Origin: Candidatus Omnitrophota bacterium
Lineage (GTDB): Bacteria > Omnitrophota > Gorgyraeia > Gygaellales > Profunditerraquicolaceae
DNA length: 64,000 nt
Direction of reading: 5' to 3'
Assembly: GCA_022710715.1 (NCBI GenBank)
Contig: JAKLGJ010000002.1
Span: 147,791 to 211,790 of the forward strand
Below the pieces are notes generated by a model that saw only the letters and a list, made by a program, of their open reading frames with translations, searched no databases and was not told the DNA's origin. Below, piece after piece: positions 5,594 to 61,799 of this stretch. Numbering within the stretch: the stretch's first letter is position 1; each line of letters begins with the position of its first letter. The position numbers and the translations under genes were made by a program.

Positions 5594-5595
5594 GG

Positions 5596-11308: not shown

Positions 11309-11446
11309 ATGAAGAAAAATCTGACAACCCCATCCAACATTGTCGGCAAGCGCAGCCAGGGATTCCTCAAGCGCATGGCTTCGAAGGGCGGCAGAAACGT
11401 TGTGTCTGCTCGACGGAGAAAAGGAAGAAAAAAGCTTTGTATCTAA
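11309..11446 (+). CDS. rpmH: 50S ribosomal protein L34
   Basis: 45 aa (below the ORF-track size cutoff): [55 protein letters not shown] lies 10 nt upstream. Confidence 0.85.
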
Positions 11447-11661: not shown

Positions 11662-11665
11662 CTCT

Positions 11666-13201: not shown

Positions 13202-13202
13202 T

Positions 13203-13391: not shown

Positions 13392-13392
13392 T

Positions 13393-13408
13393 TGTTTCAC
13401 GTGGAACA
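13393..13408. promoter_or_regulatory. parS centromere-like site
   Basis: TGTTTCACGTGGAACA is one mismatch from the consensus TGTTTCACGTGAAACA. Directly upstream of parAB. Confidence 0.7.
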
Positions 13409-13467
13409 ATCAAATTTGTCTATTGACAAACGGCGAAAATTTGAGAAAATAGTACCAGGTAGCCAAA

Positions 13468-13483
13468 TGTTTCACGTGGAACC
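13468..13483. promoter_or_regulatory. parS-like site (second copy)
   Basis: TGTTTCACGTGGAACC is two mismatches from consensus, 10 nt before the parA start. Confidence 0.55.
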
Positions 13484-13492
13484 ATATTTTAT

Positions 13493-41820: not shown

Positions 41821-43137
41821 ATGGTTCGAGTCCGTTTTGCTCCCAGTCCCACGGGGTTTTTGCATATAGGCGGGGCGCGCACCGCGTTGTTCAACTGGTT
41901 CTACGCCCAGGCCCAGGGCGGTAAATTCATCCTGCGTATCGAAGATACCGACGCCGCGCGTTCCAGACCGGAATATGTCGACGAGATACTCTTGAGCCTG
42001 AAATGGCTGGGATTCAACTGGGACGAGATCTACTATCAAAGCCAGCGTTTCGACATCTACCGCCGGTACGCCCAACAGCTGGTCAGCGAAGGAAAGGCCT
42101 ACGTGGCCGAAAAACTTCCCGACCAGCCGGCAGGCGGCCAGGCGATTATACTCAAGATGCTGCCGCAGCAGGTCAAGCTCAACGATCTGATCCGCGGACA
42201 GATCGAGTTCGACACCGCGGTGATCAAAGATCAGGTGCTCATCAAATCAGACGGCACGCCGACCTATAATTTCGCCTGCGTCATCGATGACGCCCTGATG
42301 CAGATCACGCATGTCATCCGCGGCGACGACCATATCTCGAACACTCCCAAACAGATCGTGCTCTATCAGGCCCTGGGGTTCGCGGTGCCGGAATTCGCGC
42401 ATCTGCCTTTGATCCTGGCCAAGGCCGGGGGGCGGCTTTCCAAGCGCAAAGGCGCTACGGCCATCTCGGAATACCGTCAGATGGGGTACCTTTCCGAAGC
42501 CCTGGTGAATTTTCTCCTGCTGCTGGGGTGGTCCCCCGGAGCGGATCGCGAGATCATCGGGCTCAAAGAAGCGATCGGCCTTTTCGACATCCGCAAGGTG
42601 AACAAAACCGCGGCAGTGCTTGATCTGGATAAGCTGGACTGGATCAACAGCCAGTATCTGCGCGCCATGTCGCCGCAGGACTTACTGACAGTGCTCGTGC
42701 CGCTGCTGGCGGAGAAGGGGTATATCGAAAAAGAAAAATTTGATAGCAATTATGTGCTTTCTTTGATACAATTATTTCAATCGCGCATGTCCACGCTGCA
42801 CGATTTCGTGGAGCGGTCGGATTTCTTTTTTGTCGATCAACCGGCGATGGATCCCGCCGCGCAGGAGAAATTTTTGTCCGGTGACCACTCCCGGGAATTC
42901 TCCCTGTTTATCCGGCGGCTGGAGGGTCTGGCGGATTTCAGTCCGGCAACCATTGAGGCCGGTTTTCGCGAGATGGCCCAGGAACTGGGCATGGAAGCCA
43001 AGCAACTGGTGCATCCGGTACGGGTAGCCCTGACCGGGAAAACCGTGGGCCCGGGACTGTTTGAGTTGGTCTACTACTTGGGTAAAGAGCGGACTAAACA
43101 GCGCTTGATCAGATGGGTAAAAAGGGAGGTTGCATGA
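41821..43137 (+). CDS. gltX: glutamate--tRNA ligase
   Basis: HIGH motif (PSPTGFLHIGGARTA) and KMSKS-equivalent LSKRKG. 438 aa. Confidence 0.9.
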   Translation: MVRVRFAPSPTGFLHIGGARTALFNWFYAQAQGGKFILRIEDTDAARSRPEYVDEILLSLKWLGFNWDEIYYQSQRFDIYRRYAQQLVSEGKAYVAEKLPDQPAGGQAIILKMLPQQVKLNDLIRGQIEFDTAVIKDQVLIKSDGTPTYNFACVIDDALMQITHVIRGDDHISNTPKQIVLYQALGFAVPEFAHLPLILAKAGGRLSKRKGATAISEYRQMGYLSEALVNFLLLLGWSPGADREIIGLKEAIGLFDIRKVNKTAAVLDLDKLDWINSQYLRAMSPQDLLTVLVPLLAEKGYIEKEKFDSNYVLSLIQLFQSRMSTLHDFVERSDFFFVDQPAMDPAAQEKFLSGDHSREFSLFIRRLEGLADFSPATIEAGFREMAQELGMEAKQLVHPVRVALTGKTVGPGLFELVYYLGKERTKQRLIRWVKREVA

Positions 43138-43298
43138 CACGAAAGGCCCTTCTGCTTTTATTGCTTTGGTGTAGTTCGATTCTGTGTTGCGGCTGCAATA
43201 CGGTTGGCGGCGCGGCTAAAGGCGCGGCTGATGGAGCGAAAAAGGACTACGAGGAAGCAAAAAAGGCGGATGCATGGTTGCAGGAAAATCTCTGGTAA
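43134..43298 (+). CDS. entericidin-like small lipoprotein
   Basis: 54 aa MTRKALLLLLLWCSSILCCGCNTVGGAAKGAADGAKK. Lipobox-like Cys followed by CNT and a Gly/Ala/Lys-rich tail, as in EcnA/B. Confidence 0.5.
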   Translation: MTRKALLLLLLWCSSILCCGCNTVGGAAKGAADGAKKDYEEAKKADAWLQENLW

Positions 43299-43448: not shown

Positions 43449-43883
43449 ATGAAAAAAGTGTATACTTATTTCGAGGTCTCTATGCCCAGGGGAATGACAG
43501 TCCTAGAGCTTGTAGTGGTGGTCATGATTATCGGCATTATTGCCGCATTGGCAATTCCCAATCTTTCTATCTCATTGGAGCGCAGCAGGATAAAAGAGGC
43601 GGAATTCAACCTTATGGCGATCTACAATGCCGAGAAGCGGTTTTATTTATACAACGGCAGCGAAACCTATTATTATGCTTCCGGAGCCAATGCCTTGCAG
43701 GGGATAAACGAGAATCTATCCCTGAACCTGGAAGCCAAGTATTTCCGGTATGCGGTCGCGAATAACGGCGCGGGCGGTTTTATCGCTATGGCTACGCGCC
43801 TGGACGGTATGTGCAGAAACGAAAATATGACGGTTACTGCTGACAACAGCAACATAACCAAGGGGTGCACGGGGAAATGGTGA
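43449..43883 (+). CDS. type IV pilin / GspG-like pseudopilin (prepilin N-methylation motif)
   Basis: Class III signal MPRG|MTVLELVVVVMIIGIIAALAIP with Glu at +5. Start could be 43485. Confidence 0.75.
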   Translation: MKKVYTYFEVSMPRGMTVLELVVVVMIIGIIAALAIPNLSISLERSRIKEAEFNLMAIYNAEKRFYLYNGSETYYYASGANALQGINENLSLNLEAKYFRYAVANNGAGGFIAMATRLDGMCRNENMTVTADNSNITKGCTGKW

Positions 43884-45304
43884 ACAAAATCGGAACGAAA
43901 ACAATGCTGATTGCCGCGGCAGCGGCGCTGTTGGTTACGGTTATCGCAGGCATAGTGATAGCCAAAACCAAGAGCATCAAATACCTGCCCCAGGATTATT
44001 CCATGGAGATGCTCAAGCAGGACTATAAAAACAACCCTATCGAGCTGTCGGGCGTAGATTGCGCGACTGCGCCGGAGGCGCAGGCGTATTTTAACTGCCA
44101 GGCGTGTACCACGTTGCGGCAGTTGCTCTGCAAAGACTGTTGTTTTTTAGGCACTCCGGCTAACGGTCAGCTGCGCTGTGTTGATGGGGATCCTGCTTAT
44201 TGCGACACCAAGCCGGGACTGCCTTTTGATACCGACAACAACTCCTGTCCTGCGGCCCAGTGCACAGAGACATCCTGCCAGAATCAACAACCGCCGGAAA
44301 CGGATTGTCTTGCCGGCGTGCAGCTTAACCAGTATCAGTACCTGGGGTGTCCGAAGACCACTGAACCTGCCCCGAAAGCGGGATCGGATTGTATAGGTAA
44401 TGAGGATACGTCCTGGTATTGCAGTAGCGGCGCTCTGGACGCCCGTCCGGCGTGTACTCCCCGCGCTAATTTTTTTCTACCCTCGGGCGCGCCGCTTCAG
44501 GATTGCGGCATGCTTCCACCGTACGATCTGATTGACGGGCAGCCGGAAGAGCTGTATAAACATAAAGACACGCCTATGGGGCCATGGCATTTTCCCGAAG
44601 ACTCCCGGTGTGATAATAACTGGGCAAAGTGTTTCGAGTATGCGGTAAACCCGGATTATGCGGCTTGCGTGAAGACCTGTAAGGATACAGCCAAAGCGCG
44701 GGAGGATTGCGCAGCCCAACAGAAATGTTGCACGGAAGCTGTTTGTCCCGACGAAACGCCATCGGGCATCGTGAATTGTCCTCACCGCAGCAGCCCGTTA
44801 GATCCCATGCAGGCCTGCGATAAGCGCATTGCCAAGCAGTGCGATACCACCTACGCCACTGCGCCCTGCAATACGATCATCAAAAGATATAACGAGTGGC
44901 TTTTGAGCGGCGAGGCCCCTGATTGCTTCCAGCCTGTTGACCCGTCGCAGAAATTCAAGTACCGGTTTGTCGCGCGCAGCAACGAAAAGATCACCATTAC
45001 CTGGCAGGTATTGTGCAATGCCGTTAAGAAAGGCAATCCCGACGAGTCCGACCGCATGTTTTATACCATGGTCAGAGTCCGGGATGAAGACGGGGGCCAG
45101 CCGGCGCATAACAGCATTATTCATCAGCGGTCCTTCCAGAACAAGTTTTTTATCAGCGCCGCGACCACGATTCCCGCCGGTTACTTGCAGGCGGGGAAGG
45201 CATACACCGCAGAAATCTATTATTATATCCCTTTACTGCAGAATGAAGAGCTGCAAATGAACGTCGAATATTTACAGCTGATTTTACATCGCAGTCGCGA
45301 ATAA
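43865..45304 (+). CDS. cysteine-rich secreted / membrane-anchored protein, unknown function
   Basis: 479 aa; N-terminal TM/signal anchor, about 36 Cys in the first 380 residues, Cys-free beta-rich C-terminal about 100 aa. No family recognised; overlaps the upstream pilin gene. Confidence 0.6.
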   Translation: MHGEMVNKIGTKTMLIAAAAALLVTVIAGIVIAKTKSIKYLPQDYSMEMLKQDYKNNPIELSGVDCATAPEAQAYFNCQACTTLRQLLCKDCCFLGTPANGQLRCVDGDPAYCDTKPGLPFDTDNNSCPAAQCTETSCQNQQPPETDCLAGVQLNQYQYLGCPKTTEPAPKAGSDCIGNEDTSWYCSSGALDARPACTPRANFFLPSGAPLQDCGMLPPYDLIDGQPEELYKHKDTPMGPWHFPEDSRCDNNWAKCFEYAVNPDYAACVKTCKDTAKAREDCAAQQKCCTEAVCPDETPSGIVNCPHRSSPLDPMQACDKRIAKQCDTTYATAPCNTIIKRYNEWLLSGEAPDCFQPVDPSQKFKYRFVARSNEKITITWQVLCNAVKKGNPDESDRMFYTMVRVRDEDGGQPAHNSIIHQRSFQNKFFISAATTIPAGYLQAGKAYTAEIYYYIPLLQNEELQMNVEYLQLILHRSRE

Positions 45305-45311
45305 ACAGGAG

Positions 45312-46130
45312 GTGGGTATGAAGCGCATTATAACCGGAATCTGCGTATGGCTTTTGCTCTGTGCGGTAGCGGCGCTGGCCGAGGAAGCGGAAATGCCGGC
45401 AGCGTTGCCTCCTACGGTAACCGAGATCAAAGGCGCGCAGACCGCGGAATTAAGCCCGGCACGATATCCGGTTTTTAAAAGTTTCCCTTCGGGGGATGCT
45501 CCGACGTGCCAGGCATACTTGAGCACTCTTTTCGACGAAGAGGAAGCCACGACCTCTGGAGAGGCGCAGAGCGGGTTGAGCCTGGCGCCCATTCAATTGA
45601 CCAGCAAATTCGGCAGCCCCGGCGTTCCCGCCGGCGATGAAGCGCGCTGGGAGCCGGTTCAGGGATTGAAGCTGGCGACTTTTACCGTGCCGAGCGAATA
45701 CCGGAAAACCGCCAAGATACTGATTACCTGGACTGTCCGGGTAAACGGCATTCCCACGGCGCTGAATATCAGGCCTAATCTCTGCTCAAACTGGGCGGGG
45801 ACCTCGGTGCAGGGTTTTCCCGAAGGCCAGTTGATCACCAAGCTCTATATCAATAAGATTCCCACAAGCAAAGAAGTGGAAATAACCGTTCCGGCGTCAT
45901 CGGACCTGGTCATAAGCCAGCCTCGTCCGCCGGCGCCCACCGGCTGCGATCCCACTCTGACCGGTTCATATCTGATCTCTCCGGACCAGTTTTCCGACAA
46001 GCAATTGCCGGCGAAGCTGACCAACATCGAGATCTGGTGGAAGAATGATACTTCGATGAAGCTGGTTTCGGAGGGCGACTGGAGAAATATGATCATTACT
46101 TTTATGCCGCTGGGCAAAGATCAAAATTAA
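45312..46130 (+). CDS. secreted protein of unknown function, paralog A
   Basis: Signal peptide. Shares TVTEIKGA, EYRKTAKILITWTVRV, DPTLTGSYLISP, IEIWW and ITFMPLG blocks with the next gene. Confidence 0.65.
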   Translation: MGMKRIITGICVWLLLCAVAALAEEAEMPAALPPTVTEIKGAQTAELSPARYPVFKSFPSGDAPTCQAYLSTLFDEEEATTSGEAQSGLSLAPIQLTSKFGSPGVPAGDEARWEPVQGLKLATFTVPSEYRKTAKILITWTVRVNGIPTALNIRPNLCSNWAGTSVQGFPEGQLITKLYINKIPTSKEVEITVPASSDLVISQPRPPAPTGCDPTLTGSYLISPDQFSDKQLPAKLTNIEIWWKNDTSMKLVSEGDWRNMIITFMPLGKDQN

Positions 46131-46161
46131 GCATTGAGGGATAAGAAAAAGGAGGGGAGAG

Positions 46162-47004
46162 ATGAGAACCGTTATAATCGTAGTAGGCATCTGTTTATTG
46201 ATCACCGGTTTGGCCTGGGCCGGCGAGAAAGCCACCATGCCCGTCGCCAGAGCTCCGGAGGTTACGGAGATCAAAGGCGCTGACGCCGCGCAGCTGGCGC
46301 CGGCGATTTTTCCGCAATTTATCGCCAAACACGAAACGGATAATCCCACCTGCGAAGATTGGCTGGCAGGTCTTAGCGGCACGCGGATGAGAAACCTGCA
46401 GAGCCCTTATGCCCGGGATGCAGGAGCTTGGTGGGGAGGTGTCGAGGTCAAGGCGGATCCTGCCCATCCTAACCAGGGCACCCAGATAATCACTGCGAAT
46501 GCCGGCAAGTGGCAGCTTCTTCCCGGATTGAGCAAGGCTAATTTCAGGATCCCGGAGGAATACCGCAAAACCGCGAAGTTACTGATCACCTGGACCGTGC
46601 GCGTAGAAGGCCGGGCCTATCCTGTCTGCGACTATAATTTGACCCAAAACTGTTTCCATGCCTGGCCGGACCTGTGTCATCCCTGGCATGGCAAAGCGTA
46701 TCTGTCCTTCTCGAAAGGCAATGTCTCGACCAAGGTTTATGTCAATGGCTCACCGGTGAGCGAGTCGTTCACCCTGGAAGTGCCCGGTCCCGGACAGGTC
46801 AGCGGCAATCAGCCCTATGACCCGACATTGACCGGCAGCTTTTTGATCTCTCCTGCAGAATTAGGGCTGGAGGAATTTCCGGCGGTGATCCGTTCTATCG
46901 AAATCTGGTGGCAGAACGAAACGGCAATGCATGTTACCAGTCCGGCGCACATGCGCACCATGTCGATCACCTTTATGCCGCTGGGCGAATCGCTGGCAGA
47001 TTAA
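46162..47004 (+). CDS. secreted protein of unknown function, paralog B
   Basis: Signal peptide; same conserved blocks (EVTEIKGA, EYRKTAKLLITWTVRV, DPTLTGSFLISP, IEIWW, ITFMPLG). Confidence 0.65.
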   Translation: MRTVIIVVGICLLITGLAWAGEKATMPVARAPEVTEIKGADAAQLAPAIFPQFIAKHETDNPTCEDWLAGLSGTRMRNLQSPYARDAGAWWGGVEVKADPAHPNQGTQIITANAGKWQLLPGLSKANFRIPEEYRKTAKLLITWTVRVEGRAYPVCDYNLTQNCFHAWPDLCHPWHGKAYLSFSKGNVSTKVYVNGSPVSESFTLEVPGPGQVSGNQPYDPTLTGSFLISPAELGLEEFPAVIRSIEIWWQNETAMHVTSPAHMRTMSITFMPLGESLAD

Positions 47005-47013: not shown

Positions 47014-47898
47014 GTGCATACGGTGTTTATGAAAAAGCAAGGCGTGACGTTCATCGAAATCCTGGTTTCCCTGGTCATCCTGAGCCTGATCCTGTCGGCA
47101 GTAGCTGCCGCGCTTTTTGGCGGGTTCAGGATGCTCAAGCAGGCGGAATTCAAGTCAAGGGCCATGGGTATTGCCTATTTCAAGATGAGCCAGGCCTTGA
47201 GCAAAACCTATTCCGGCAGCCTGAATAACACCACTGTGCCGCAACTGTGGACCGGGTTCAATGATACCGAGGCGGAATTCTTCTGGAGCATTACGGCCAC
47301 TCCCGAGGAATCGGATAAAGCCCACATTCCGTACAAGAACATTACCGTTGTTTGCAGCTATGCCATAAAGAATCCCGATGGCACGCTGGATAAACCCAGA
47401 GAAGTCCGTTTGAGCAATATCATTCCGTATCCGTATATCCACAGCCGGTCGAAGAAGGTCGATTGGAACGAAACCACCGGTAATTATCCGCTGGCTCTGA
47501 ACGCTTCGCAATCGGATAGGCCTGATCCCGCCGACTTTAAGGATATTCTTTCGCCGGAAGTCATTAGTTTTAACTTCGAAGTGAACAAGGACCTGGTGGT
47601 GCTCTATAATCTGGCTATCGAGCATGAGCCGGATTTTGCCGATCAGGAACCGCCGCCGGGCAATCAGACCGTGTATACCGAGTGCCTGATGGACAATAAC
47701 GCAATCTGGGGCATTACCACCCGCACCCCGATCATCAGCCAGCCGTTCATTAATAACGCCCTGGTCATCCAGAACGTATCCGCGGAGCCGCATACGCTGC
47801 AAATCCGCTGGTGCAAGGATCCCTCGAAGGGCAAAGTGAAACTGCGGTCATACGAGATTACCGTTCTAGCCTATGAAAATATTACCTGGATCCAATAG
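47014..47898 (+). CDS. large minor pseudopilin (GspK/PilX-like size) with prepilin signal
   Basis: MHTVFMKKQG|VTFIEILVSLVILSL class III signal with Glu+5. 294 aa with several N-x-S/T sequons. Confidence 0.7.
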   Translation: MHTVFMKKQGVTFIEILVSLVILSLILSAVAAALFGGFRMLKQAEFKSRAMGIAYFKMSQALSKTYSGSLNNTTVPQLWTGFNDTEAEFFWSITATPEESDKAHIPYKNITVVCSYAIKNPDGTLDKPREVRLSNIIPYPYIHSRSKKVDWNETTGNYPLALNASQSDRPDPADFKDILSPEVISFNFEVNKDLVVLYNLAIEHEPDFADQEPPPGNQTVYTECLMDNNAIWGITTRTPIISQPFINNALVIQNVSAEPHTLQIRWCKDPSKGKVKLRSYEITVLAYENITWIQ

Positions 47899-48448
47899 CG
47901 GCTTTACGCTGCTCGAGCTGATTATCTCGGCGGTGATCGCGGTTATCGTCTTTATGGGAGTTTTGAACACCAGCACGTTTACCTGCAGGCAGATCACGTT
48001 GTATGTGGAGCGGTATAATATGTATTCCCAGATCGACCTGGCCCTGCAGGATATGCAGGCGCGTCTGCCCGCTGCAGTCGAGATCGCCGCCAACAGCATT
48101 CTCGATTCCAGCGATCCTGACGATAGCAAAACACGCTTCACCTTTCAAGGCGAGTCCGATATTTTCAGGATTACCCCGGATAACCTGGCGGACAATGCCC
48201 GGTATACATACGAGATCGATCCTGCCAACAATCTGGTGTTGCGCAAGGAAGTAAACGGCAATGTAGTGACTACCGTTCTGGTCGAAGGAAAATTCCTGCC
48301 CGAAGTGCATTTCGGGTGGGATGAAGAGCCGAATTTTTTAAAGATCACGCTTACTGCCCGCAGTCCGCGAAAACAGTTGTCCGGATTGACTCAACAAATC
48401 GCCAAAGTCGAAGGAGTCAGGCTTTGGTTCATTAACGCGGTCGAATGA
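47873..48448 (+). CDS. minor pseudopilin (GspJ-like size) with prepilin signal
   Basis: MKILPGSNSG|FTLLELIISAVIAV. 191 aa; overlaps the previous gene by 26 nt. Confidence 0.7.
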   Translation: MKILPGSNSGFTLLELIISAVIAVIVFMGVLNTSTFTCRQITLYVERYNMYSQIDLALQDMQARLPAAVEIAANSILDSSDPDDSKTRFTFQGESDIFRITPDNLADNARYTYEIDPANNLVLRKEVNGNVVTTVLVEGKFLPEVHFGWDEEPNFLKITLTARSPRKQLSGLTQQIAKVEGVRLWFINAVE

Positions 48449-48756
48449 TAGCTACCGTCATCGGCGTACTGATTACCATACTGTCCTTAATGGTTGCCTT
48501 TTTTCTCTCCATAGGCAACGTCCATCATTTGGTGGAAGCCGATTTTCTCAACAAAGCCCAGTCTAACGCCGTCCTTAATACTCTGCAGGTGGGGCAGTTG
48601 CGGTACCGGGATAAGACCCTGAACGATACGCAGACCACGCATAATGGCTCGATAGGGCATCTGCGCAGCGTGGCTAATAAAGACTACAGCAATGTGACTT
48701 ATCAGATCAGGCTGGAAGACGCCAGCAATATTACGGTCAATGTCACGATTAAATAA
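48445..48756 (+). CDS. small membrane protein (pilin-like hydrophobic N-terminus, no G-F-T-L-I-E motif)
   Basis: 103 aa MIATVIGVLITILSLMVAFFLSIG... ATGA overlap with the preceding gene. Confidence 0.4.
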   Translation: MIATVIGVLITILSLMVAFFLSIGNVHHLVEADFLNKAQSNAVLNTLQVGQLRYRDKTLNDTQTTHNGSIGHLRSVANKDYSNVTYQIRLEDASNITVNVTIK

Positions 48757-49198
48757 CCGGAGGGTTGTCGATATGTTCAGATCCGCTCGGAATCATCTGC
48801 GGGGATTTACCTTGATCGAGTTGGTCATCGTGGTGATTATTATCGGTATTCTGGCCACCGTGGCCACGGTGAATTATATCGGGACAATTGAAAAAGGCCG
48901 GGCCAGCGAAGCCAAGACCACGCTGGCGCAGATCCGCACTGCCTGGAGCAACTACTATCTTGAACACCAGGCCGCCCCCGGAAGCTTTGCCGACCTCGAG
49001 TTGAATGAGACGGCTTTTCCCGGGCCCGCCAATTGCAATGAAGGGCATTTTTTCCGCTACGGTATTACCGGCACCACGGCCTTCGCCTGGCGCTGTACCT
49101 CCAACGGTAAGAAGCCCAACGTGGACAACCTCCGCCGCTATAATATCACCATGGATCTGGAAAACGGCTCCTGGGGAGGGACTCCCGGGCATTTTTGA
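48740..49198 (+). CDS. type IV pilin / GspG-like major pseudopilin
   Basis: LRG|FTLIELVIVVIIIGILATVA, a near-consensus prepilin motif, followed by a pilin-like ASEAKTTLAQIRTA helix. Likely start MFRSARNHLRG at 48773. Confidence 0.75.
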   Translation: MSRLNNRRVVDMFRSARNHLRGFTLIELVIVVIIIGILATVATVNYIGTIEKGRASEAKTTLAQIRTAWSNYYLEHQAAPGSFADLELNETAFPGPANCNEGHFFRYGITGTTAFAWRCTSNGKKPNVDNLRRYNITMDLENGSWGGTPGHF

Positions 49199-51922: not shown

Positions 51923-52858
51923 TCAAGGCTCTTTGCGTTTGTCTACGACGTAATTGCTCCCGGGCAGGCTTTTGGCATAGGATTTCAATTCAGCGCCGAT
52001 TTCCCCGATTTGCGCGACGTGGTCGATTTTGATGTGCTGGTTGGTCACCACTCCGATACCGACTGAAAGCAGGGGGAACTTACGCTCCTGGCCCTGGCGG
52101 TCATGCGCAACGATATAGCCATTCGCCCGGTCGGTTTCGTTATAGAAGGTGGGAGAGACCGCATCGAAGGTGGCGATGATCGTGGTGCAGAGCACATCCA
52201 TTTTGGCGATAGTGGTGATCACCACGTAATCGTCGCCGCCGATATGTCCGACGAAATCCTCGGGATTGCCATGTTCCTGAACGGTTTTAAGCAATATGCG
52301 CGCAGTCTCCTTGATTACCCGGTCTCCGTGTTGGAACCCGTACGTGTCGTTATACGCCTTGAATTTGTTCAAATCGACATAACAAACGGCAAAAGCGTCT
52401 TTACTGCCCAGCCGGCGGTTTAATTCATCCAGGATGGAGACATTGCCGGGCAGGCGGGTCAGGGGATTGGCTTCGAGATCGATGCCGGAGCGGCGCAGGA
52501 TCATCCGGATATGCGCGATCAGCTCCTTTGGTTCAAACGGTTTGACGATATAATCATCCGCTCCCGCTTCGATGCCGTCCACCTTATCTGTCAACTCGCC
52601 CTTGCCGGTAACCATGATAATCGGCAGGTGGCGCAGGAGAATATCTTTTTTGATCCTGCGGCAGAATTCACGGCCGTCCATGCGGGGCATCTTGTAGTCC
52701 ACCAGGACCAGGTCGGGAACCTTCGTCTCGATGGCCTTCAGGGCTTCTTCTCCGTTACCCGCCTCGGTAACTTCGTACTTTTCGTCTTCCAGGGTAATTC
52801 TGATCACGTCGCGGATATCCGGATCGTCGTCGACAACGAGAATCTTAATGCTTGGCAT
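51923..52858 (-). CDS. response regulator: REC domain + GGDEF-family domain with non-canonical GGDDY site
   Basis: REC with phospho-acceptor context LVLVDYKMPRMDG. GGDEF fold (RLPGNVSILDELNRRL, DLNKFKAYNDTYGFQHGD) but signature reads HIGGDDYVV. Confidence 0.8.
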   Translation of the reverse strand: MPSIKILVVDDDPDIRDVIRITLEDEKYEVTEAGNGEEALKAIETKVPDLVLVDYKMPRMDGREFCRRIKKDILLRHLPIIMVTGKGELTDKVDGIEAGADDYIVKPFEPKELIAHIRMILRRSGIDLEANPLTRLPGNVSILDELNRRLGSKDAFAVCYVDLNKFKAYNDTYGFQHGDRVIKETARILLKTVQEHGNPEDFVGHIGGDDYVVITTIAKMDVLCTTIIATFDAVSPTFYNETDRANGYIVAHDRQGQERKFPLLSVGIGVVTNQHIKIDHVAQIGEIGAELKSYAKSLPGSNYVVDKRKEP

Positions 52859-52873
52859 ACAATCCCAGCTCCT

Positions 52874-54361
52874 TTATTGAGCGACCGGGAGGGTGAAGCT
52901 GAAGGTAGAACCGGCCCCGGCCGAGCTCTTTACCCAGATGGTTCCTTTGTGCGCTTCGATGATATGCTTGACCATGGCCAATCCCAGCCCCGTGCCCTTG
53001 ACTTCCTGATTGATGGTGGAATCCACGCGGTAAAATTCCACGAAGAGATTGTTAACCGCGTCTTCGGGAATGCCGCAGCCGGTATCGGCGATATCTATCT
53101 GCACCCGGCTGTTTTTCTGCGCCGCTCTTACCGTAATGGTCCCGCCCGGCGTATACTTGACGGCATTATTAATCAGGTTGATGCACACCCGTTTGATCTG
53201 TCCGTAATCGGCCAGTACCTCGGGTAGCGCAGCGTCAACATCCAGCCGGAATGCAATCTGTTTTTCCTTCATCTGCACCGCCAGCAGGTCGGCGACTTCC
53301 TCGACGACATTCCGCACATTCAGCGGGACGAGTTTTAAAGTGATCCGGCCCGATTCGATGCGGGCGATGTCCAGCAGGTCATTGACGAATGAAACGAGCT
53401 CGTCGCTGTGCTTGTTGATCTTTTCCAGGCGTTTATGCACCTCTTCGGGAATAGCGCCAAGTTTGCCCGAGAGCAGGATAGAGGCGTATCCTTTGATCGA
53501 AGTAAGGGGGGTGCGCAGCTCATGAGAAACATTGGAAACGAAATCGTTTTTGCGCTGGCTGATGCGCTTGACTTCTTCCAGCGCTACGCTTAATTCTCTC
53601 GTACGTTCTTCCACCCGCTTTTCCAGCTCTTGATGCGCCTGCCAGGTTTTTTCGAAAAGACGGGCGTTCTCCAGCGCCTGACCGATCTGATTCGCCAGGA
53701 TGTTCATTAATTCTTCATCCCCTTCGTTAATGATCAGATCGGGGTCGGTTGAACCGACAAAAAGGAACCCCTTATTGCCTTCTTTCGGCAGGATGGGAGA
53801 GATAACGAAAGAAATGACTTTGAAGGTTTTCTTTATCTGTTCTCTCAATTGCCGGTCGACCTGCGGCGATACCGACGACATGCCTTTTTCATTATTGATC
53901 ATCTGGTGGAACGCGTCGCTCTGCGCCTGGACGAATTGCCGGATAGCTTCGAGCTCCTCTTCCGCGTAGTTGAGCTCCAGATAAAAGATATAATTGCCGG
54001 TAAACTCATTGCGTAAAAATGCCGCGGCTTTCTCGAACCCGAGATTTTCCACCAGCTCCTGCTCGATCTTGCCGAAAATCTGCGTTTCGTCCAGCGTCGA
54101 ACTGATCGAGCGGGTCAGCTTTTGCAGGGTGTAAAGACCGTTGACCTTCTTATCCAGTTCTTCCTGCGTTTTGTTCAGTTCGATATCGGTGCGCACGACC
54201 AGCTTGGCCTGTTCATCCATCTCGTCCAGGGTGTATTTGAGATTGTTGACCGAGGTCTCAAGCTGGCTGACCTGTCCGATCTTCAGAACCAGCACGATTG
54301 CCAGGGCGATGCATCCGGCAAAGCTCGCCAGGCCCAGTATCATCATCAGGAAGTCAAACAT
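52874..54361 (-). CDS. sensor histidine kinase (TM anchor - coiled coil - GAF - HisKA - HATPase_c)
   Basis: H-box SHELRTPLTSIKGYASIL; N, G1 (DTGCGIP) and G2 (GTGLGLAMVK) boxes. Confidence 0.85.
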   Translation of the reverse strand: MFDFLMMILGLASFAGCIALAIVLVLKIGQVSQLETSVNNLKYTLDEMDEQAKLVVRTDIELNKTQEELDKKVNGLYTLQKLTRSISSTLDETQIFGKIEQELVENLGFEKAAAFLRNEFTGNYIFYLELNYAEEELEAIRQFVQAQSDAFHQMINNEKGMSSVSPQVDRQLREQIKKTFKVISFVISPILPKEGNKGFLFVGSTDPDLIINEGDEELMNILANQIGQALENARLFEKTWQAHQELEKRVEERTRELSVALEEVKRISQRKNDFVSNVSHELRTPLTSIKGYASILLSGKLGAIPEEVHKRLEKINKHSDELVSFVNDLLDIARIESGRITLKLVPLNVRNVVEEVADLLAVQMKEKQIAFRLDVDAALPEVLADYGQIKRVCINLINNAVKYTPGGTITVRAAQKNSRVQIDIADTGCGIPEDAVNNLFVEFYRVDSTINQEVKGTGLGLAMVKHIIEAHKGTIWVKSSAGAGSTFSFTLPVAQ

Positions 54362-54363
54362 AA

Positions 54364-55617
54364 TTATGCCTCAATAATAAGTATGGAAATAGTCTGGTTC
54401 TGGAAATACGCCTGTCCGTGGTAGCTGGTGGATAAGAGCGGGGCCAGCTCCCCATGGGTATACACGCCGATTATCGGGGTCTCCGGGTCAAGGGTTTCCC
54501 GGATAAGCTCGAGTTCTTTCTTTATCTCGCGGCGTAACGAAACCGCGCGGGGGAATGAATTGAAAATAATCGCCATCTTCGACGAATCGTTCTTGTGAAA
54601 ACGGTAGGATTGCGATGCCAGATGCGTTTTGGCTTCATTGAGCGCTTCCCGTGTTGCCTCCAGACAGGTTTCTTTGGTGCTGATCATCAAACGCACGGAA
54701 CTGCCGGTTTGCACGTTCCCCCGGCAGACCAGGGAACCGTCGTCGCCTATAGAGGTCACGTTGCGCAGGAGATATTCCTGTTGCCCGGGCACGCGCATCC
54801 CGAAAGGATAGAGAATGGACAACTTTTTGAATTCTTTCTTGAGCCGGGAGATGTCATAGTTGAGATATTCTTCATAGATACCGATCGCCGGCTGGTCGTC
54901 GATGGAAACGATGATGTTGTCGTATGCCTGGGTGATCGTATGGGGTTTCCCCAATGGTTTCCAGCCGTGTTTCAACCCCAGTCCGAAATTGAATTTTCCT
55001 CCCCAGAGGATTCCTATGCAGGCGTTATTGAGGATCGTGGTGTTAAAGAAAAGCGAATCGCGGCCGGCCAGCGCCGGATTGGAAATCGACGCCCCGATGC
55101 AGGGAAAGCTTCGGCCCAGTTTAGACTGCAGACCGGTCATGAATTGCGCTCCGGATTCTTCCATGCGGTCAAAGAGCAGGAAGCTTAAGGTCCGGGAGAC
55201 ATTCTGGAAGCCGTACAGAAGCTTTTCTCCCAGATCTTCTCCGGCAGCAGTGCTGGTGGCAAATTCGTTGGTTTTAGTGTAGGCGGTGTTGAAATAAACC
55301 CCCTCGGGGAAGCCGATGAGCATGACGACAAGCCCGTGATTGAAAATGCCTTTTTCCGTGATGAGCGCCGAAGAATTTGAGCCGAAAATGGGGACGTCGC
55401 CGAGGAAGGTGTTGAGATGCTTGATCAGTGCGACTGACGAGAAATCCGCGGTACTGAACGTGAGCACCAGATCGATCTTTTCTTTGCTGGCTTTTCTTGA
55501 TTTTGCCTGCCGGACCGCCTCTTCTGAAGCAGCGATCTCGTTCTTCTCAAGACTTACGCCAACGCCTATGTCGATCATTATTTTGTCAGTTCGATAGCGG
55601 TCGTTTAATCGCACCAT
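54364..55617 (-). CDS. FIST-domain sensory protein (FIST_N + FIST_C)
   Basis: 417 aa; IDIGVGVS N-terminus and overall FIST architecture. Heads the 3-gene operon with the HK and RR. Confidence 0.65.
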   Translation of the reverse strand: MVRLNDRYRTDKIMIDIGVGVSLEKNEIAASEEAVRQAKSRKASKEKIDLVLTFSTADFSSVALIKHLNTFLGDVPIFGSNSSALITEKGIFNHGLVVMLIGFPEGVYFNTAYTKTNEFATSTAAGEDLGEKLLYGFQNVSRTLSFLLFDRMEESGAQFMTGLQSKLGRSFPCIGASISNPALAGRDSLFFNTTILNNACIGILWGGKFNFGLGLKHGWKPLGKPHTITQAYDNIIVSIDDQPAIGIYEEYLNYDISRLKKEFKKLSILYPFGMRVPGQQEYLLRNVTSIGDDGSLVCRGNVQTGSSVRLMISTKETCLEATREALNEAKTHLASQSYRFHKNDSSKMAIIFNSFPRAVSLRREIKKELELIRETLDPETPIIGVYTHGELAPLLSTSYHGQAYFQNQTISILIIEA

Positions 55618-56465: not shown

Positions 56466-57281
56466 AAAGAGTTACAATAATATTATTCCCTCATTAAAAA
56501 TTAATAAAATTTATCGTTAGATTTGTCGACTTCGCGCGTCTATTATAGCGGAGAAGACAAATGCCTTCATGCGCTAGAAAACATCGATTAACAGGATCGC
56601 TTATTTACCATATCTTCAATCGCGGCAATAGCCGCAAGGTCATCTTTTGTGATGAGTCGGATTGCATTTTCTTCAAATGTCTCCTTAAAAAATACATTGA
56701 ACTGTTCTCTATACAGATTTATCACTGGGTAATCATGCCCAATCATTATCATTTATTGCTGGAGATTGCCGAGCCGCGGTTAATTTCGCGGGTCATGGCC
56801 GGCCTTAATGTTTCATACACCAGGCATTTTCACCGGAAATATGAGACATATGGTCTATTGTGGCAAGGAAGATTTAAATCGCAGCCGGTGCAGAAAGAGT
56901 CTTATCTTTTTGCCTGCGGCAGATATATCGAGCGAAACCCGGTGAGGAAGAACATAGTATCGGTCGCCGCGGAGTATGCACATAGCAGCGCGCGGTTTTA
57001 TTGCCTGGGGGAGAATGATGACATCACCTGCGAGGATCCGTATTTTCGGGAGTTCGGCCGGAGCTTAAACGATGCGCAGGCGCATTATGCGCGTTATTTA
57101 CTTGGGTTCGATCGGACTGAAGAAAGCCAATTCCGCAAAATTGATATTCCCTTAGGGGATAGAATCTTTGTGAATAAGTTGCGGAAGGAGAGGGGGCTTT
57201 ATGTCCCTGCCGGTCCAGGAAAACCGCGAGCGAATATCATTGCAACTAATTGCTAGACTAATATTTGGGGAAAGCGTCTGC
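56466..57281 (+). mobile_element. putative small insertion carrying the RAYT/IS200-like transposase (boundaries not defined)
   Basis: AT-rich DNA and a transposase gene next to a tRNA gene. No terminal inverted repeats or REP hairpins identified. Confidence 0.3.
56561..57256 (+). CDS. IS200/IS605-family HUH (Y1) transposase, RAYT-like
   Basis: HUH motif NHYHLLLE and catalytic Tyr context RYIERNPVR. The gene and the 95-nt stretch before it look AT-rich against the GC-rich surroundings. Confidence 0.75.
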   Translation: MPSCARKHRLTGSLIYHIFNRGNSRKVIFCDESDCIFFKCLLKKYIELFSIQIYHWVIMPNHYHLLLEIAEPRLISRVMAGLNVSYTRHFHRKYETYGLLWQGRFKSQPVQKESYLFACGRYIERNPVRKNIVSVAAEYAHSSARFYCLGENDDITCEDPYFREFGRSLNDAQAHYARYLLGFDRTEESQFRKIDIPLGDRIFVNKLRKERGLYVPAGPGKPRANIIATNC

Positions 57282-58610: not shown

Positions 58611-61600
58611 TTATTTTCTGACCAGCCGGAAATCAACGAAGATCATGTATACGCAGGGAATGATCAGCAGCGTCAGCACGGTGGAAACCGTCATGCCTCC
58701 GATGACCGTGATGGCCAGCGGCGCCCAGAGGTTCGAAGATTCGCTCTTGTCCAGGGCCATGGGGATCAGCCCCAGTATCGTGGTCAACGAGGTCATCATG
58801 ATCGGACGCAAGCGGTGCAACGAGGATTCTATTACCGCTTTACGCACGGTCATCAGGTAATCCGGATTCTTGCGCACAAAATTGATGCGGTCCACCAGAA
58901 CAATGGCGTTGTTGACCACAATGCCGAAAAGCATGATCCCGCCGATAAGCACGCCGGTGCCTACCGGTTTGTTGGTGTAGCGCAGCGCCAGAATCGCGCC
59001 GATGATCGCCAGCGGAACGGTGGCCATGATGATAAATGGCTGCGCCATCGATTCAAACAGGCTGGCCAGCACCATATATACCAGAATCAGGGCGCCCACG
59101 ACTGCGACCACCAGCTCTTTCTGGGTATTGACCATTTTTTCGTAATTGCCGCCCAGTTCCCAGCGGTAATCCAGAGAAGGCAATTGCAGCTCGGTCAGCG
59201 CCTGTTTAACCAGGTCCGCGGCAGTGCCCAGAGCGGTGCCGCCGGTATTCGCGCTGACCTGGACCATGCGCGATTTGTTTTTGCGCCAGATCTCGCTGGG
59301 ACCGACCTCGAATTTAAATTCCGCGATCTGGGTTAAAAATACCGGATGGCCGTCAGGGGTAACGAAACTGGTCCGGCGCAGCGCTTCAAATGAATTGCGG
59401 AAGCGCTCTTCTATACGGACAATGGTTTCGGTTTCTTTCGCTTCTTTGTCCGGCGCGGCGTCGGTTTTCTTGATCCCCGCGAAGGAAGTGGCTATGCCTT
59501 CCCGCGCGCTGGAATAAGAATCTTTGATGCGCACCATCGGTTCTTCTTTCCCGCGGTAACGGGTGGCGACCAGGCCGCGGGTATTGGTATGCAGCGCCAG
59601 GGCGATATTTTCTACGGTCAGCCCGAACAGCGCCGCCTGGCGCTTATCGATGTTGAAATGCAGCTCCGGCCGGCCTTCGCGCATGCGTATTTTAGTGTCG
59701 GTAAATTTGGGGATGCCCTGGACTTTCTGCGCGATCTGGATGGCCAGATCTTTGAGCCGGTCGTAGTCGTAGCCGAATATATCGATGATGATTTCCTTGG
59801 TCCCCACCTCTTCCTGTTCCTCGAAATAAATGAACGCCGGGTCCAGCGAGGCGGTCAGGGGGCGCAATTGTCCCATGACTTCCGCCGAGGAAAGCCGTCT
59901 CTTTTTGAACGGCACCAGTTCCACGAAGATCTTCGCCGACCAGGGCTCGACTTTCGCGGTAGAGGTTTTGATGTCGGGGAACTGCTTGAGGATCTTTTCG
60001 ACTTTCTCCACCACTTTGTTGGTCACGTCGATCCGGGTGCCGGTAGGCATTTCGATGAAGACGGTGAATTTGTTCTGTTCGGCGATCCCGATGAATTCCT
60101 TTTCCAGCTTTTTGCCTTCATTAAGAGCGTACATGAACGCGATCGCGGCGAGGATGACCAGCAGATAACGCAGGGCGATGATCACGGAGATGATCCCCCG
60201 GTAGAGATTCTGCATCAGCCGGATAAATCCTCGGTGTATGCGCTTGAGCAAACCGGGTTTCTTCTGCGGCTGCGCCGGATCGGGCAGGGAAACCGGGATG
60301 CGGGAGAGCATCAGCGGAACGATGGTCAACGCGGTCAAGAGCGAGGCGAGCAGAGAGAAGGTGATGGTTAAAGCGATCCCGCTGTAGAGCTGCTGGATCT
60401 CCTTGTTGATGAAGACCAGGGGAAGGAAAACGATTACCGAGGTGATCGTGGAGGTCACAATGGCCAGATACATCTCGTCCGCACCTTCCACCGCGCATTT
60501 CTTTTCCACTCCCGGGAAATGCAGATGCCGCTGCTCGATGATCTCGTCGCGTTTTTTGAAGACGTTATCCATAACCACAATGGCGTTATCCACGAGCATG
60601 CCCACGCCCAGGGCCAGACCGCTCAAAGAGATGACGTTCAGGGACAGGTTGGTTGCCCACATCAGGAAAAGGGTGAACAAAAGTGAGAAGGGGATGCAGG
60701 ACCCGATAATGTTGACCAGGCGAAAATCCCGCAGAAAAATAAGCAGGACCGCGACCGCCAGCAATGCGCCGACTAACAGCGAGGATTTGACCTGATTGAT
60801 GGCCTGCTGGATCACTTCGGCCTGGTTGAACGTCAGGTTGATCTGGATGTCTTTATCCACGATCCCGCGCAACTTGGCTACTTCTTCATGGATATGTTTG
60901 GATATCTTGACGGTGTTGGCGGTGGATTCTTTCTGCACGTAGATGGACACCACGGGATTGGCGTTGAGGCGGGCGAACGCCACCGGATCGAGATAGGAAT
61001 CTTTGACCTGGGCGACGTCCTTGAGCCGGATGACCGAGCCTTCCTTGGTGGTGGCTACCGCCAGGTTTTCGATGTCCGCAAGCGACTTGAACTCCCCGAT
61101 GGTCCGGACCAGGTATTTATTCCTGTCCCCATAAACTTCGCCGGCCATGGAGTTCTCGTTGTTCACGTTGATGATATCCACCAGCCGGTTAATGGGGAGC
61201 CCGTAGGCCTGTAATTTGCGCTGGTCGACGTCGATAATGATCTTGCCTTCGCGGCCTCCGGCGACTTCGGCATTCGCCACGCCTTCGACTCTCTGGATGC
61301 GGTCTTTGACGGTTTCGTCGACGATCTTGCGCAACTGTTCGGGGCTGCGGTTGACTCTGCTGGTTACTGCCAGGATCATGATCGGCACGTCCATATATTC
61401 GTATTTAGCCACGACGGGTTTTTCGATTTCCTGGGGGAGCCTGTTGCGGATGCGGTTGAATTTCTCGCGCACCTCCAGGGCGGCAAAATCCATGTTGATC
61501 CCCGGTTCGAATTCCAGGATAACGGTGGAGTTGCCTTCCTTGGAGATAGAGATGAGATTTTTGAGATGGGTGGCGCCGCCGACCGCTTCTTCCACCAGTT

Positions 61601-61796: not shown

Positions 61797-61799
61797 GTT

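What the first reader, a model, noticed from the sequence alone, without database searches (positions are those of the whole stretch)
45312..47004. Tandem paralogous secreted proteins sharing conserved blocks
The two adjacent ORFs (272 and 280 aa) both have signal peptides. They share collinear blocks PxVTEIKGA, EYRKTAKxLITWTVRV, DPTLTGSxLISP, IEIWWxN and ITFMPLG, and are divergent elsewhere. This indicates an old tandem duplication kept in the pilin operon. Paralog B has extra Cys, His and Trp-rich inserts (CDYNLTQNCFHAWPDLCHPWHG) that paralog A lacks, suggesting sub-functionalisation. No family recognised.
Basis: seen in the sequence. Interest (0 to 1): 0.6.

Follow-up and report, generated by a model that had tools for sequence, protein, structure and literature searches.

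The report
Duplicated pilus-operon jelly-roll proteins
Two neighbouring genes in an uncultured Omnitrophota bacterium encode diverged copies of an undescribed secreted protein that always sits inside a type IV pilus "minor pilin" gene set and probably forms a target-binding part of that pilus, though this rests on computation alone.

Summary
The two adjacent ORFs are true paralogs (BLASTP 38% identity, E 3e-60), both have Sec-type signal peptides, and all five quoted blocks are present. No curated library (Pfam, NCBIfam, PHROGs, PDB sequences) recognises them. They do belong to a real family: at least 140 clusters at 50% identity, almost all from Candidatus Omnitrophota.

In 20 of 21 genome loci, in every metagenome locus with enough upstream DNA, and in members only 20-23% identical, the gene occupies a fixed slot in a six-gene cassette. 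The order is pilin, Cys-rich ~470-aa protein, this family (one or two copies), two prepilins, and a small pilin-like membrane protein. In six loci a PilM-like gene follows the cassette, and the three longest contigs continue into secretin and ATPase genes.

AlphaFold2 (pLDDT 92.5) gives a C1q/TNF-like beta jelly-roll.

Tandem duplication recurred in at least five lineages and decayed in one. Both copies are under purifying selection. Paralogs differ mainly in two loops, including the one that carries B's Cys-containing insert.

Best reading: a non-pilin, pilus-associated binding subunit, analogous to PilY1 but unrelated in fold. It is a new variant of a known kind, and the function is unproven.

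The parts
43449..43883 (+). Prepilin-type protein (144 aa; leader ...PRG|MTVLE). First gene of the cassette. It is either GspH/FimU-like or a major-pilin-like subunit.
   Evidence: NCBIfam TIGR02532 at 23.8 bits (cutoff 16.3), plus N-terminal matches to PilA, GspG and GspH. Homologues occupy the same position in the related loci that have enough upstream DNA.
43865..45304 (+). Cys-rich protein with an N-terminal hydrophobic segment. The maximal ORF is 479 aa; public gene calls give 466-475 aa. It has no recognised family. Its C-terminal ~130 aa are conserved and rich in beta-strand-type residues.
   Evidence: No Pfam, NCBIfam, PHROGs or PDB-sequence match. Homologues with 27-38 Cys lie directly upstream of the family in every locus with upstream DNA. 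It is not related to the A/B family by hhalign.
45318..46130 (+). Paralog A (270 aa from the ATG at 45318; the maximal ORF runs from the GTG at 45312). It has a Sec signal peptide, a small N-terminal beta/alpha sub-domain and a C-terminal C1q/TNF-like jelly-roll.
   Evidence: RBS AGGAGG at 45308-45313. Family HMM E 1e-86. AlphaFold2 pLDDT 92.5, pTM 0.83. Foldseek matches.
46162..47004 (+). Paralog B (280 aa), with the same architecture as A.
   Evidence: BLASTP against A gives E 3e-60. Family HMM E 1e-84. RBS AGGAGG at 46150-46155.
46612..46641 (+). B-specific 10-residue insertion RAYPVCDYNL in variable loop 1. With Cys164 it adds a second Cys pair, which probably forms an extra disulfide.
   Evidence: Alignments and coordinates. 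The same loop is a family-wide indel hot spot and differs between young paralog pairs.
45924..45947 (+). A-specific Pro-rich stretch RPPAPTGC in variable loop 2, immediately before the invariant DPT.TGS motif.
   Evidence: Alignment. This loop is the strongest indel hot spot in the family. It carries a 5-aa indel in the L010 pair and a 32-aa indel in the L008 pair.
47014..47898 (+). Prepilin-type minor pilin, about 289-294 aa. The likely start is the ATG at 47029, giving the leader MKKQG|VTFIE. By gene order it is the candidate PilI/GspI/PilV-position subunit.
   Evidence: Pfam N_methyl at 24.6 bits. Weak N-terminal NCBIfam matches to PilV, XpsI and GspI. Conserved in 20 of 21 genome loci and in the 23 of 25 metagenome loci whose contigs reach that position.
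47873..48448 (+). Prepilin-type minor pilin (191 aa; ...SG|FTLLE). By gene order it is the candidate PilJ/GspJ-position subunit.
   Evidence: Pfam N_methyl and a weak NCBIfam ComGF match. Conserved synteny.
48445..48756 (+). Small protein (103 aa) that starts directly with a hydrophobic helix. It has no prepilin leader, no Gly-1 and no Glu5. By gene order it is the candidate PilK/GspK-position cap subunit.
   Evidence: Alignment A7. Always the last gene of the cassette core. No significant profile match to pilins, so this assignment is inference only.
48740..49198 (+). Prepilin-type pilin (152 aa maximal ORF; ...RG|FTLIE), GspG/PilA-like. It is present after the cassette only in this genome and its closest relative, L026.
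   Evidence: Pfam N_methyl at 32.7 bits and NCBIfam matches. L026 homologue at 42% identity.
49170..49197 (+). Terminator-like hairpin followed by a T-run at the end of the last pilin gene. This is the probable 3' end of the operon.
   Evidence: Gene spacing within the cassette ranges from overlaps to 31 nt.

Best explanation
A and B are two copies of an Omnitrophota-specific, Sec-exported, non-pilin protein. This protein is a fixed component of the minor-pilin (priming/tip) gene module of a type IV filament.

Proposed mechanism:
1. After export and removal of the signal peptide, the protein folds into a disulfide-stapled body. A small N-terminal sub-domain packs on a C1q/TNF-like jelly-roll.
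2. It joins the complex formed by the four pilin-like proteins and the Cys-rich protein of the same operon.
3. The complex carries it out on the filament.
4. There it acts as the ligand-binding (adhesin or lectin-like) part, with the two hypervariable loops setting specificity.
5. Genomes with two copies display two specificities, either on alternative tips or on mixed tips.

Shown here: paralogy, the signal peptides, the existence of the family, its strict synteny with pilin genes, the fold, purifying selection on both copies, and divergence focused on loops.

Inferred: physical association with the pilus, surface exposure, ligand binding and oligomeric state.
For: - Paralogy: E 3e-60.
- Family size: 140 representative clusters, 52 of them at E<=1e-30.
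- Taxonomy: relatives in reference genomes are almost all Candidatus Omnitrophota.
- Synteny: the order pilin / Cys-rich protein / family x1-2 / prepilin / prepilin / small TM protein is found in 20 of 21 genome loci. It also holds in members only 20-23% identical to A.
- Reciprocal test: starting from the 191-aa pilin, all 16 metagenome loci with enough upstream DNA carry the family gene.
- Link to an assembly machine: in six loci a PilM-like gene follows the cassette after one unrelated gene. In the three contigs long enough to show it (L011, L019, L024), two small genes, a secretin and a T2SSE/MshEN ATPase follow.
- Co-evolution: the family evolves at the same rate as its pilin neighbours. 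Mean pairwise identity is 40.7%, against 40.7% and 39.7% for the two prepilins.
- Export: the Sec signal is conserved, and the Cys66/Cys158 pair is invariant or nearly so.
- Fold: AlphaFold2 pLDDT 92.5. Foldseek matches include the TNF-like lectins BC2L-C-Nt and PLTL, Pgp3, EDA and many viral C1q-type head domains.
- Selection: dN/dS between tandem copies is 0.13-0.38. Differences in young pairs fall in two loops, the same loops that carry the indels between A and B.
- Precedent: non-pilin proteins encoded in minor-pilin operons (PilC/PilY1, MshQ) are described as tip adhesins held by strand complementation (PMC12918778).
- Organism: type IVa pili are reported in nearly all Omnitrophota and proposed to mediate host attachment (PMC10066038).
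Against: - No experiment or structural model places the protein on a pilus.
- The fold match is at topology level only. TM-score is 0.24-0.39 normalised to the query and 0.45-0.62 to the target, with large rmsd. Jelly-rolls also occur in many proteins that are not adhesins.
- No sequence profile links the family to C1q, TNF or any lectin family.
- The last beta-strand is an integral, confidently modelled part of the jelly-roll. A PilY1-style donation of the extreme C-terminus is therefore not evident for this protein. The Cys-rich neighbour may be the anchored subunit instead.
- The window contains no pilus assembly genes.
- One locus, L007, has an orphan copy next to an rpoN-like gene with no pilins within 10 kb.
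- Overall selection is purifying, and no site-wise test for diversifying selection was run.
Confidence: 0.5

Rival explanations
1. A soluble factor secreted by the filament, like TcpF or CofJ. A and B would be cargo rather than structure. They would be exported by Sec, dock transiently on the minor-pilin complex through their conserved mature N-terminus, and be pushed out through the secretin. They would then act on target cells as free lectin- or toxin-like proteins.
For: - They have a Sec signal and are encoded inside the pilin operon.
- The mature N-terminus (about residues 22-34) is the only coil segment with reduced confidence, yet it is partly conserved (M-P-V...P) among the closer relatives.
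- TNF-like lectins such as BC2L-C and PLTL, and Pgp3, are soluble secreted proteins.
- Precedent: TcpF and CofJ bind the tip minor pilin and are secreted by type IVb pili (PMC6048534, PMC9565799, PMC10120004).
Against: - TcpF and CofJ belong to type IVb systems with a single trimeric minor pilin. This cassette has four pilin-like genes.
- The fixed slot, 1:1 stoichiometry and equal evolutionary rate with the pilins fit a structural partner better than a cargo. Cargo genes are usually more mobile.
Confidence: 0.2
2. A periplasmic assembly factor. The protein would never leave the periplasm and would act as a chaperone, scaffold or alignment component. For example, it could hold the Cys-rich protein or the minor pilins until priming of the filament.
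For: - Strict synteny and co-evolution with the pilins.
- Overall purifying selection.
- Beta-sandwich domains are common in periplasmic parts of type IV filament machines such as PilP and the GspC HR domain (general knowledge, not tested here).
Against: - Repeated duplication, with indels of up to 32 residues concentrated in two loops, is unusual for a housekeeping assembly factor and typical of surface-exposed binding proteins.
- In the loci that carry assembly genes, the family gene sits with the pilins and not with the PilM-like/secretin/ATPase block.
Confidence: 0.15
3. An unrelated secreted protein that lies in a pilin operon with no functional connection to it.
For: One orphan copy lies outside any pilin context (L007). 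No assembly genes are present in this window.
Against: The same gene order is kept in 20 of 21 genome loci, in all 16 informative metagenome loci and at 20-23% identity. The flanking genes, in contrast, differ completely between genomes.
Confidence: 0.03

Closest known systems
PilC/PilY1 tip adhesins of type IVa pili, and MshQ of the MSHA pilus
   Same: They are non-pilin proteins with a Sec signal, encoded within the minor-pilin operon. They are thought to act with the PilI-J-K-type minor pilins in priming and to sit at the filament tip as the adhesin (PMC12918778, PMC7541494).
   Different: - PilY1 and PilC are about 1000-aa proteins with a C-terminal beta-propeller. A and B are about 250-aa jelly-roll proteins with no sequence or fold similarity to them.
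- Here the gene lies upstream of the putative I-J-K genes, not downstream.
- A second non-pilin protein, the Cys-rich one, accompanies it.
- The C-terminal strand is part of the fold rather than a free tail.
C1q/TNF-like jelly-roll heads, including the bacterial TNF-like lectins BC2L-C N-terminal domain and PLTL, Chlamydia Pgp3, and C1q-type heads of viral and phage fibres
   Same: The C-terminal ~150 residues have a beta jelly-roll of about ten strands. These structures are the best and most consistent matches: Foldseek probability about 1.0 and target-normalised TM 0.45-0.62. Such domains typically form the distal, ligand-binding end of fibres.
   Different: - No sequence-profile relationship.
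- There is an extra N-terminal sub-domain tied on by a conserved Cys pair.
- Trimer formation and sugar binding are untested.
- No C1q/TNF-like domain turned up in a type IV pilus context in the one full-text search I ran.
TcpF (Vibrio cholerae) and CofJ (ETEC): proteins secreted by type IVb pili
   Same: They carry a Sec signal, are encoded in the pilus operon and are not pilins. They interact with the tip minor pilin through the mature N-terminus.
   Different: They belong to a different pilus class with a different minor-pilin set, and their folds are unrelated. Here the gene holds a fixed position among four pilin-like genes.
Modular minor pilins with grafted binding modules (for example Streptococcus sanguinis PilB)
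   Same: The logic is the same: a binding module is added to the pilus through the minor-pilin set (PMC8179133).
   Different: In modular pilins the module is fused to a pilin domain that has a class III signal peptide. A and B are separate polypeptides with a Sec signal and no pilin domain.

Membership tests
Type IV pilin / pseudopilin | Class III signal peptide: a short leader, Gly-1, a hydrophobic N-terminal helix and usually Glu5 (Pfam N_methyl, TIGR02532). | tested here: not met
   A and B give no N_methyl or TIGR02532 match, while four neighbouring genes do. Their N-termini are Sec-type with AxA cleavage sites.
PilC/PilY1 | [quoted passage not shown] | tested here: not met
   The 270-280-aa proteins have no Pfam or NCBIfam match. 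The AlphaFold2 model is a jelly-roll, not a propeller.
PilC/PilY1 | A non-pilin with a Sec signal, encoded within the minor-pilin operon. | tested here: met
PilC/PilY1 | The extreme C-terminal peptide complements the beta-sheet of the PilK-family minor pilin. | not testable with these tools
   This needs multimer modelling or biochemistry. In the monomer model the last strand (residues 258-265) is part of the jelly-roll.
C1q/TNF superfamily | A ten-strand jelly-roll beta-sandwich with C1q/TNF topology. | tested here: inconclusive
C1q/TNF superfamily | Sequence membership in Pfam C1q or TNF. | tested here: not met
   None of the 85 family members matches either Pfam family at E<=0.1. The family profile finds nothing among PDB sequences.
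C1q/TNF superfamily | Assembly as a trimer. | not testable with these tools
   Only monomer prediction was available.
TNF-like bacterial lectins (BC2L-C-Nt, PLTL) | A sugar-binding site at the protomer interface. | not tested
   Identity in the structural alignments is 9-13%. Binding residues were not compared.
TcpF/CofJ-type pilus-secreted proteins | A type IVb pilus operon with a single large trimeric minor pilin (TcpB/CofB) as receptor. | tested here: not met
   The cassette has four pilin-like genes of 103-294 aa and no TcpB/CofB-like protein.
New Omnitrophota cassette family (this report; alignment A2) | A match to the family profile, including the invariant Cys66, Trp140, Pro214 and Asn245 (numbering of the 272-aa ORF), and a position between the Cys-rich protein and the ~290-aa prepilin. 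| tested here: met
   HMM E 1e-86 for A and 1e-84 for B. Invariant columns are listed. Synteny is shown.

The most novel reading that the evidence does not exclude
Omnitrophota, which are ultra-small and probably host-dependent bacteria, have replaced the PilY1-type adhesin with a different tip architecture. A C1q/TNF-like, possibly trimeric, head protein together with a heavily disulfide-bonded partner would sit on a minimal set of minor pilins. The two hypervariable loops of the head would determine which host or surface is recognised. Repeated tandem duplication and loss of the head gene would then be how these bacteria change or widen their target range.
Probability: 0.3. Interest if true: 0.7.

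Novelty: new variant of a known kind. Interest (0 to 1): 0.52.

Why it matters
Omnitrophota have not been isolated, and their proposed predatory or parasitic lifestyle rests largely on the presence of type IV pili and giant proteins (PMC10066038).

What their pili bind, and through which subunit, is unknown. The Omnitrophota papers I read do not mention minor pilins or PilY1.

This family gives a concrete, small and confidently modelled candidate for the recognition subunit. It comes with named variable loops and natural two-copy variants, so it is directly testable by expression, glycan or cell binding assays and multimer modelling.

For the type IV filament field, it would add a third kind of non-pilin tip partner beside PilY1/PilC and MshQ. 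It would also test how general the tip-initiation model is.

If the protein turns out to be periplasmic or a secreted cargo, the finding reduces to one more conserved hypothetical protein in a lineage-specific pilin operon.

Tried and rejected
- Single-sequence and 85-sequence word-indexed searches found only A itself plus two distant members. That index misses this family. The exhaustive HMMER scan was needed.
- AlphaFold2 with only A and B as the alignment failed (pLDDT 47.8). It was superseded by the 85-sequence run.
- Pfam, NCBIfam, PHROGs and PDB-sequence searches with single proteins, profiles and all 85 members gave nothing meaningful.
- I asked whether the C-terminal beta domain of the Cys-rich neighbour is a diverged copy of the family. 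hhalign probability was 5%, so this is rejected.
- I asked whether the 103-aa protein is detectably a pilin. hhalign against both prepilin families gave 4-6% probability, and PDB gave nothing. Its PilK-position label is therefore inference from gene order only.
- The profiles of the two prepilin families match solved pilins only over the N-terminal helix. Their I/J assignment is unproven for the same reason.
- A phage origin was considered because of the tail-fibre-like fold matches. There are no relatives in 2.9 million viral contigs and no PHROG match, so this is rejected.
- A single ancient duplication shared by all two-copy genomes is rejected by the tree and bootstraps.
Full report
**1. 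The observation**

The + strand between 43.4 and 49.2 kb carries a tight run of eight ORFs. The two flagged ORFs, 45312-46130 and 46162-47004, align over their full length.

Paralog A most likely starts at the ATG at 45318. An AGGAGG lies at 45308-45313, and the public gene call is 270 aa. B starts at 46162 behind its own AGGAGG.

Both have Sec-type signal peptides with predicted cleavage at ALA|EE and AWA|GE. A signal of the same type occurs in 107 of 118 full-length relatives, and only two have a lipobox-like motif.

RAYPVCDYNL is extra, whereas P.LC..WHG is the family consensus that A has altered. A has its own Pro-rich insert in another loop.

**2. Source and neighbourhood**

The identical protein is recorded from a MAG named Candidatus Omnitrophota bacterium (GCA_035453765.1) and from several metagenome assemblies of the same organism.

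In the window the cassette lies between gltX and a DUF4337 gene followed by glnS. Ordinary housekeeping genes surround it, including the dnaA-dnaN-gyrB-gyrA region, and there are no pilus assembly genes.

Four neighbours are prepilin-type proteins by Pfam N_methyl or NCBIfam TIGR02532: 43449-43883, 47014-47898, 47873-48448 and 48740-49198. Two further genes complete the cassette. One is a 479-aa protein rich in Cys (43865-45304). The other is a 103-aa protein that begins directly with a hydrophobic helix (48445-48756).

Gaps between genes run from overlaps to 31 nt. A terminator-like hairpin follows the last pilin gene.

**3. A real but uncurated family**

Pfam, NCBIfam, PHROGs and PDB sequences give nothing for A, B or the Cys-rich protein.

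An exhaustive HMMER scan with the A+B profile against 1.84 billion cluster representatives found 140 proteins at E<=1e-3, 52 of them at E<=1e-30. Most are 230-340 aa.

In an 85-member alignment, Cys66, Trp140, Pro214 and Asn245 are invariant (numbering of the 272-aa ORF). Cys158 is present in 99% of members, which points to a conserved disulfide between the N-terminal part and the beta domain.

A scan of one genome per species found 21 loci. Their record titles name Omnitrophota in 16 cases (including Ca. Undivivens), Planctomycetales or Planctomycetia in four, and simply 'bacterium' in one. No viral contig encodes a relative.

**4. Synteny**

My ORF, HMM and BLAST survey of these loci shows one gene order in 20 of 21:

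- pilin of about 140 aa
- Cys-rich protein of 450-470 aa with 27-38 Cys
- the family, one or two copies
- prepilin of about 280 aa
- prepilin of about 190 aa
- hydrophobic-N-terminus protein of about 110 aa

The flanking genes differ between lineages: glycine cleavage and lipoate ligase genes, an AMP-binding enzyme, or gltX. The cassette, not the region, is what is conserved.

Two members only 20-23% identical to A sit in the same order.

In the reciprocal test I searched metagenome contigs with the 190-aa prepilin. All 16 loci with enough upstream DNA had the family gene immediately upstream of the 280-aa prepilin. Some of these contigs duplicate genome loci.

In six loci a radical-SAM gene and then a PilM-like gene follow the cassette. 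In the three longest (L011, L019, L024) two small genes, a secretin and a T2SSE/MshEN ATPase come next. This ties the cassette physically to a type IV filament machine.

Exceptions:

- L007 has an orphan copy beside an rpoN-like gene.
- L008 has a second partial pilin set with no family gene.

Across 16 shared genomes the family is as conserved as its pilin neighbours. Mean pairwise identity is 40.7%, against 40.7%, 39.7%, 36.8% and 33.5% for the other cassette proteins.

**5. Structure**

With the 85-sequence alignment, AlphaFold2 gives pLDDT 92.5 and pTM 0.83. The model has three parts:

- a signal helix
- a small beta-beta-beta-alpha unit at residues 35-71
- a variable linker followed by ten to eleven strands between residues 114 and 265

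Foldseek against the PDB returns TNF-like jelly-rolls as the consistent class. These are the BC2L-C N-terminal lectin, the Photorhabdus lectin PLTL, Chlamydia Pgp3 and EDA-A1, at E 5e-4 to 4e-3 with target-normalised TM 0.45-0.62. Phage baseplate and viral capsid jelly-rolls also appear.

Against predicted viral structures there are 66 matches at E<=1e-3, many annotated as C1q domains or collagen-like fibre proteins.

**6. History of the duplication**

Two full copies occur in the window, in L008, L009, L010, L017, L026 and L027, and in the metagenome loci L032/L033, L048 and L053. The other loci have a single copy.

In a neighbour-joining tree the copies of one genome or lineage group together:

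| Group | Bootstrap support |
|---|---|
| L026 pair as sisters | 100/100 |
| L027 pair as sisters | 100/100 |
| Four L008+L009 copies as one clade | 100/100 |
| L017 copies in a clade with single-copy L020 and L023 | 100/100 |
| L010 pair as sisters | 77/100 |
| Window pair as sisters | 65/100 |

Identity within pairs ranges from 90% (L010) to 39% (window). A's best non-self matches (42%) are as close as B is. The window's duplication is therefore old.

L012, L013 and L014 keep only a decayed C-terminal remnant of a second copy, with stop codons and frameshifts.

Taken together this is repeated birth and death in at least five lineages, or concerted evolution in some. It is not one ancient event.

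dN/dS between tandem copies is 0.13-0.38, so both copies are maintained.

In the young pairs the differences cluster in two loops. These correspond to A residues ~147-160 and ~196-212, and include a 5-aa and a 32-aa indel. They are also family-wide indel hot spots, and they are where A and B differ by indels.

As an inference from strand alternation only, these loops and a third hot spot at 181-190 all follow even-numbered strands. They should therefore lie at the same end of the sandwich.

**7. Interpretation**

Non-pilin, Sec-exported proteins encoded inside minor-pilin operons are known. PilC/PilY1 and probably MshQ sit on the PilI-J-K minor-pilin complex, help prime assembly and act as tip adhesins (PMC12918778; PMC7541494).

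The three genes downstream of A and B have the size order and, weakly, the N-terminal NCBIfam matches expected for I, J and K positions. PilV, GspI and XpsI match the first gene and ComGF the second. The third lacks Glu5. The globular parts match nothing, so this assignment is inference.

The most likely reading is that the family is a pilus-associated binding subunit that works like PilY1 but is not a member of that family. The Cys-rich protein would be a second partner. Its extreme C-terminus (consensus QLI..RTR) is a better candidate than A or B for a strand-donating anchor. This last point is inference.

I put 0.5 on this reading. I put about 0.85 on the weaker statement that the family works with the minor pilins.

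The rivals are a TcpF/CofJ-like secreted cargo (0.2), a periplasmic assembly factor (0.15), and mere co-location (0.03).

**8. Novelty**

I found no description of this family, or of a C1q/TNF-like protein in a type IV pilus operon, in the Omnitrophota papers read or in one targeted full-text search.

The kind of component is known: an accessory non-pilin protein of the minor-pilin module. The protein family, its fold in this role and the two-partner arrangement are new. I therefore rate it a new variant of a known kind, with moderate interest. It would rank higher if tip display and host recognition were shown.

Noticed in passing
window 43865-45304 (+); homologues in L008-L030: The upstream neighbour is itself an uncharacterised, cassette-specific family. 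It is about 450-480 aa with an N-terminal hydrophobic segment. It has 27-38 Cys, about 20 of them invariant in the 17-sequence alignment, and a conserved C-terminal beta-type domain ending in QLI..RTR. It has no Pfam, NCBIfam, PDB or PHROG match. Such a heavily disulfide-bonded exported protein is notable in these little-known uncultured bacteria.
   Followed up: partly
window 48445-48756 (+): The 103-aa last core gene starts directly with a hydrophobic helix (MIATVIGVLITIL...). It has no prepilin leader, Gly-1 or Glu5, yet it is conserved in every cassette. It may be a minimal cap (PilK/GspK-position) subunit, but no profile supports this.
   Followed up: partly
L012 10758-10934, L013 ~8090-8255, L014 2448-2675: Decayed remnants of a second family copy lie downstream of the intact copy. 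They cover the C-terminal 55-77 codons and contain stop codons and frameshifts. The related L010 still has two copies that are 90% identical.
   Followed up: yes
L008 13567-17432 and L009 14430-17127: A second run of prepilin-type genes lies downstream of the cassette. In L008 it includes a truncated 71-aa copy of the ~290-aa prepilin plus full paralogs of the 190-aa and 110-aa proteins. It has no family gene and no Cys-rich gene.
   Followed up: no
L007 9908-12209: This is the only locus where the family gene stands alone. It lies directly upstream of a sigma-54 (rpoN)-like gene and next to a 497-aa secreted repeat protein on the other strand. No pilin gene lies within 10 kb.
   Followed up: partly
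L011, L019, L024 (for example L019 12818-20131): A radical-SAM gene (about 281 aa, 9 Cys) lies between the pilin cassette and the PilM-like/secretin/ATPase block in one sub-lineage. The PilM-like protein is unusually long (about 490 aa), with only its first ~185 residues matching PilM_2.
   Followed up: partly
window 3161-15174: This looks like the chromosomal origin region. dnaA, dnaN, gyrB and gyrA are on the minus strand (3161-11002), and yidC, parA and parB are on the plus strand (11666-15174). The cumulative GC skew has its minimum near 10 kb, and GC content dips to 41% at 12-14 kb.
   Followed up: no
window 56561-57256 (+): An IS200-like Y1 transposase gene (Pfam Y1_Tnp, E 5e-14) sits between a methyltransferase gene and an HlyD/RND efflux operon.
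   Followed up: no
window 58611-63785 (-): Two adjacent ORFs both match the AcrB/RND transporter model. The upstream 661-aa ORF matches only model positions 713-1020, and the downstream 1061-aa ORF matches 3-749 and beyond. This could be a split, rearranged or paired RND transporter.
   Followed up: no
window 43113-43298 (+): A small ORF (public aa) lies between gltX and the cassette. Its sequence ...LLLLLLWCSSILCCGCNTVGGAAKGA... resembles, from memory only, a small entericidin-like lipoprotein.
   Followed up: no
window 51923-55617 (-): A response regulator with a GGDEF domain, a HisKA/HATPase kinase and a FIST-domain protein lie just downstream of glnS. The ATPase of the related pilus machines carries an MshEN (c-di-GMP-binding type) domain, so a regulatory link is conceivable. 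I did not examine it.
   Followed up: no
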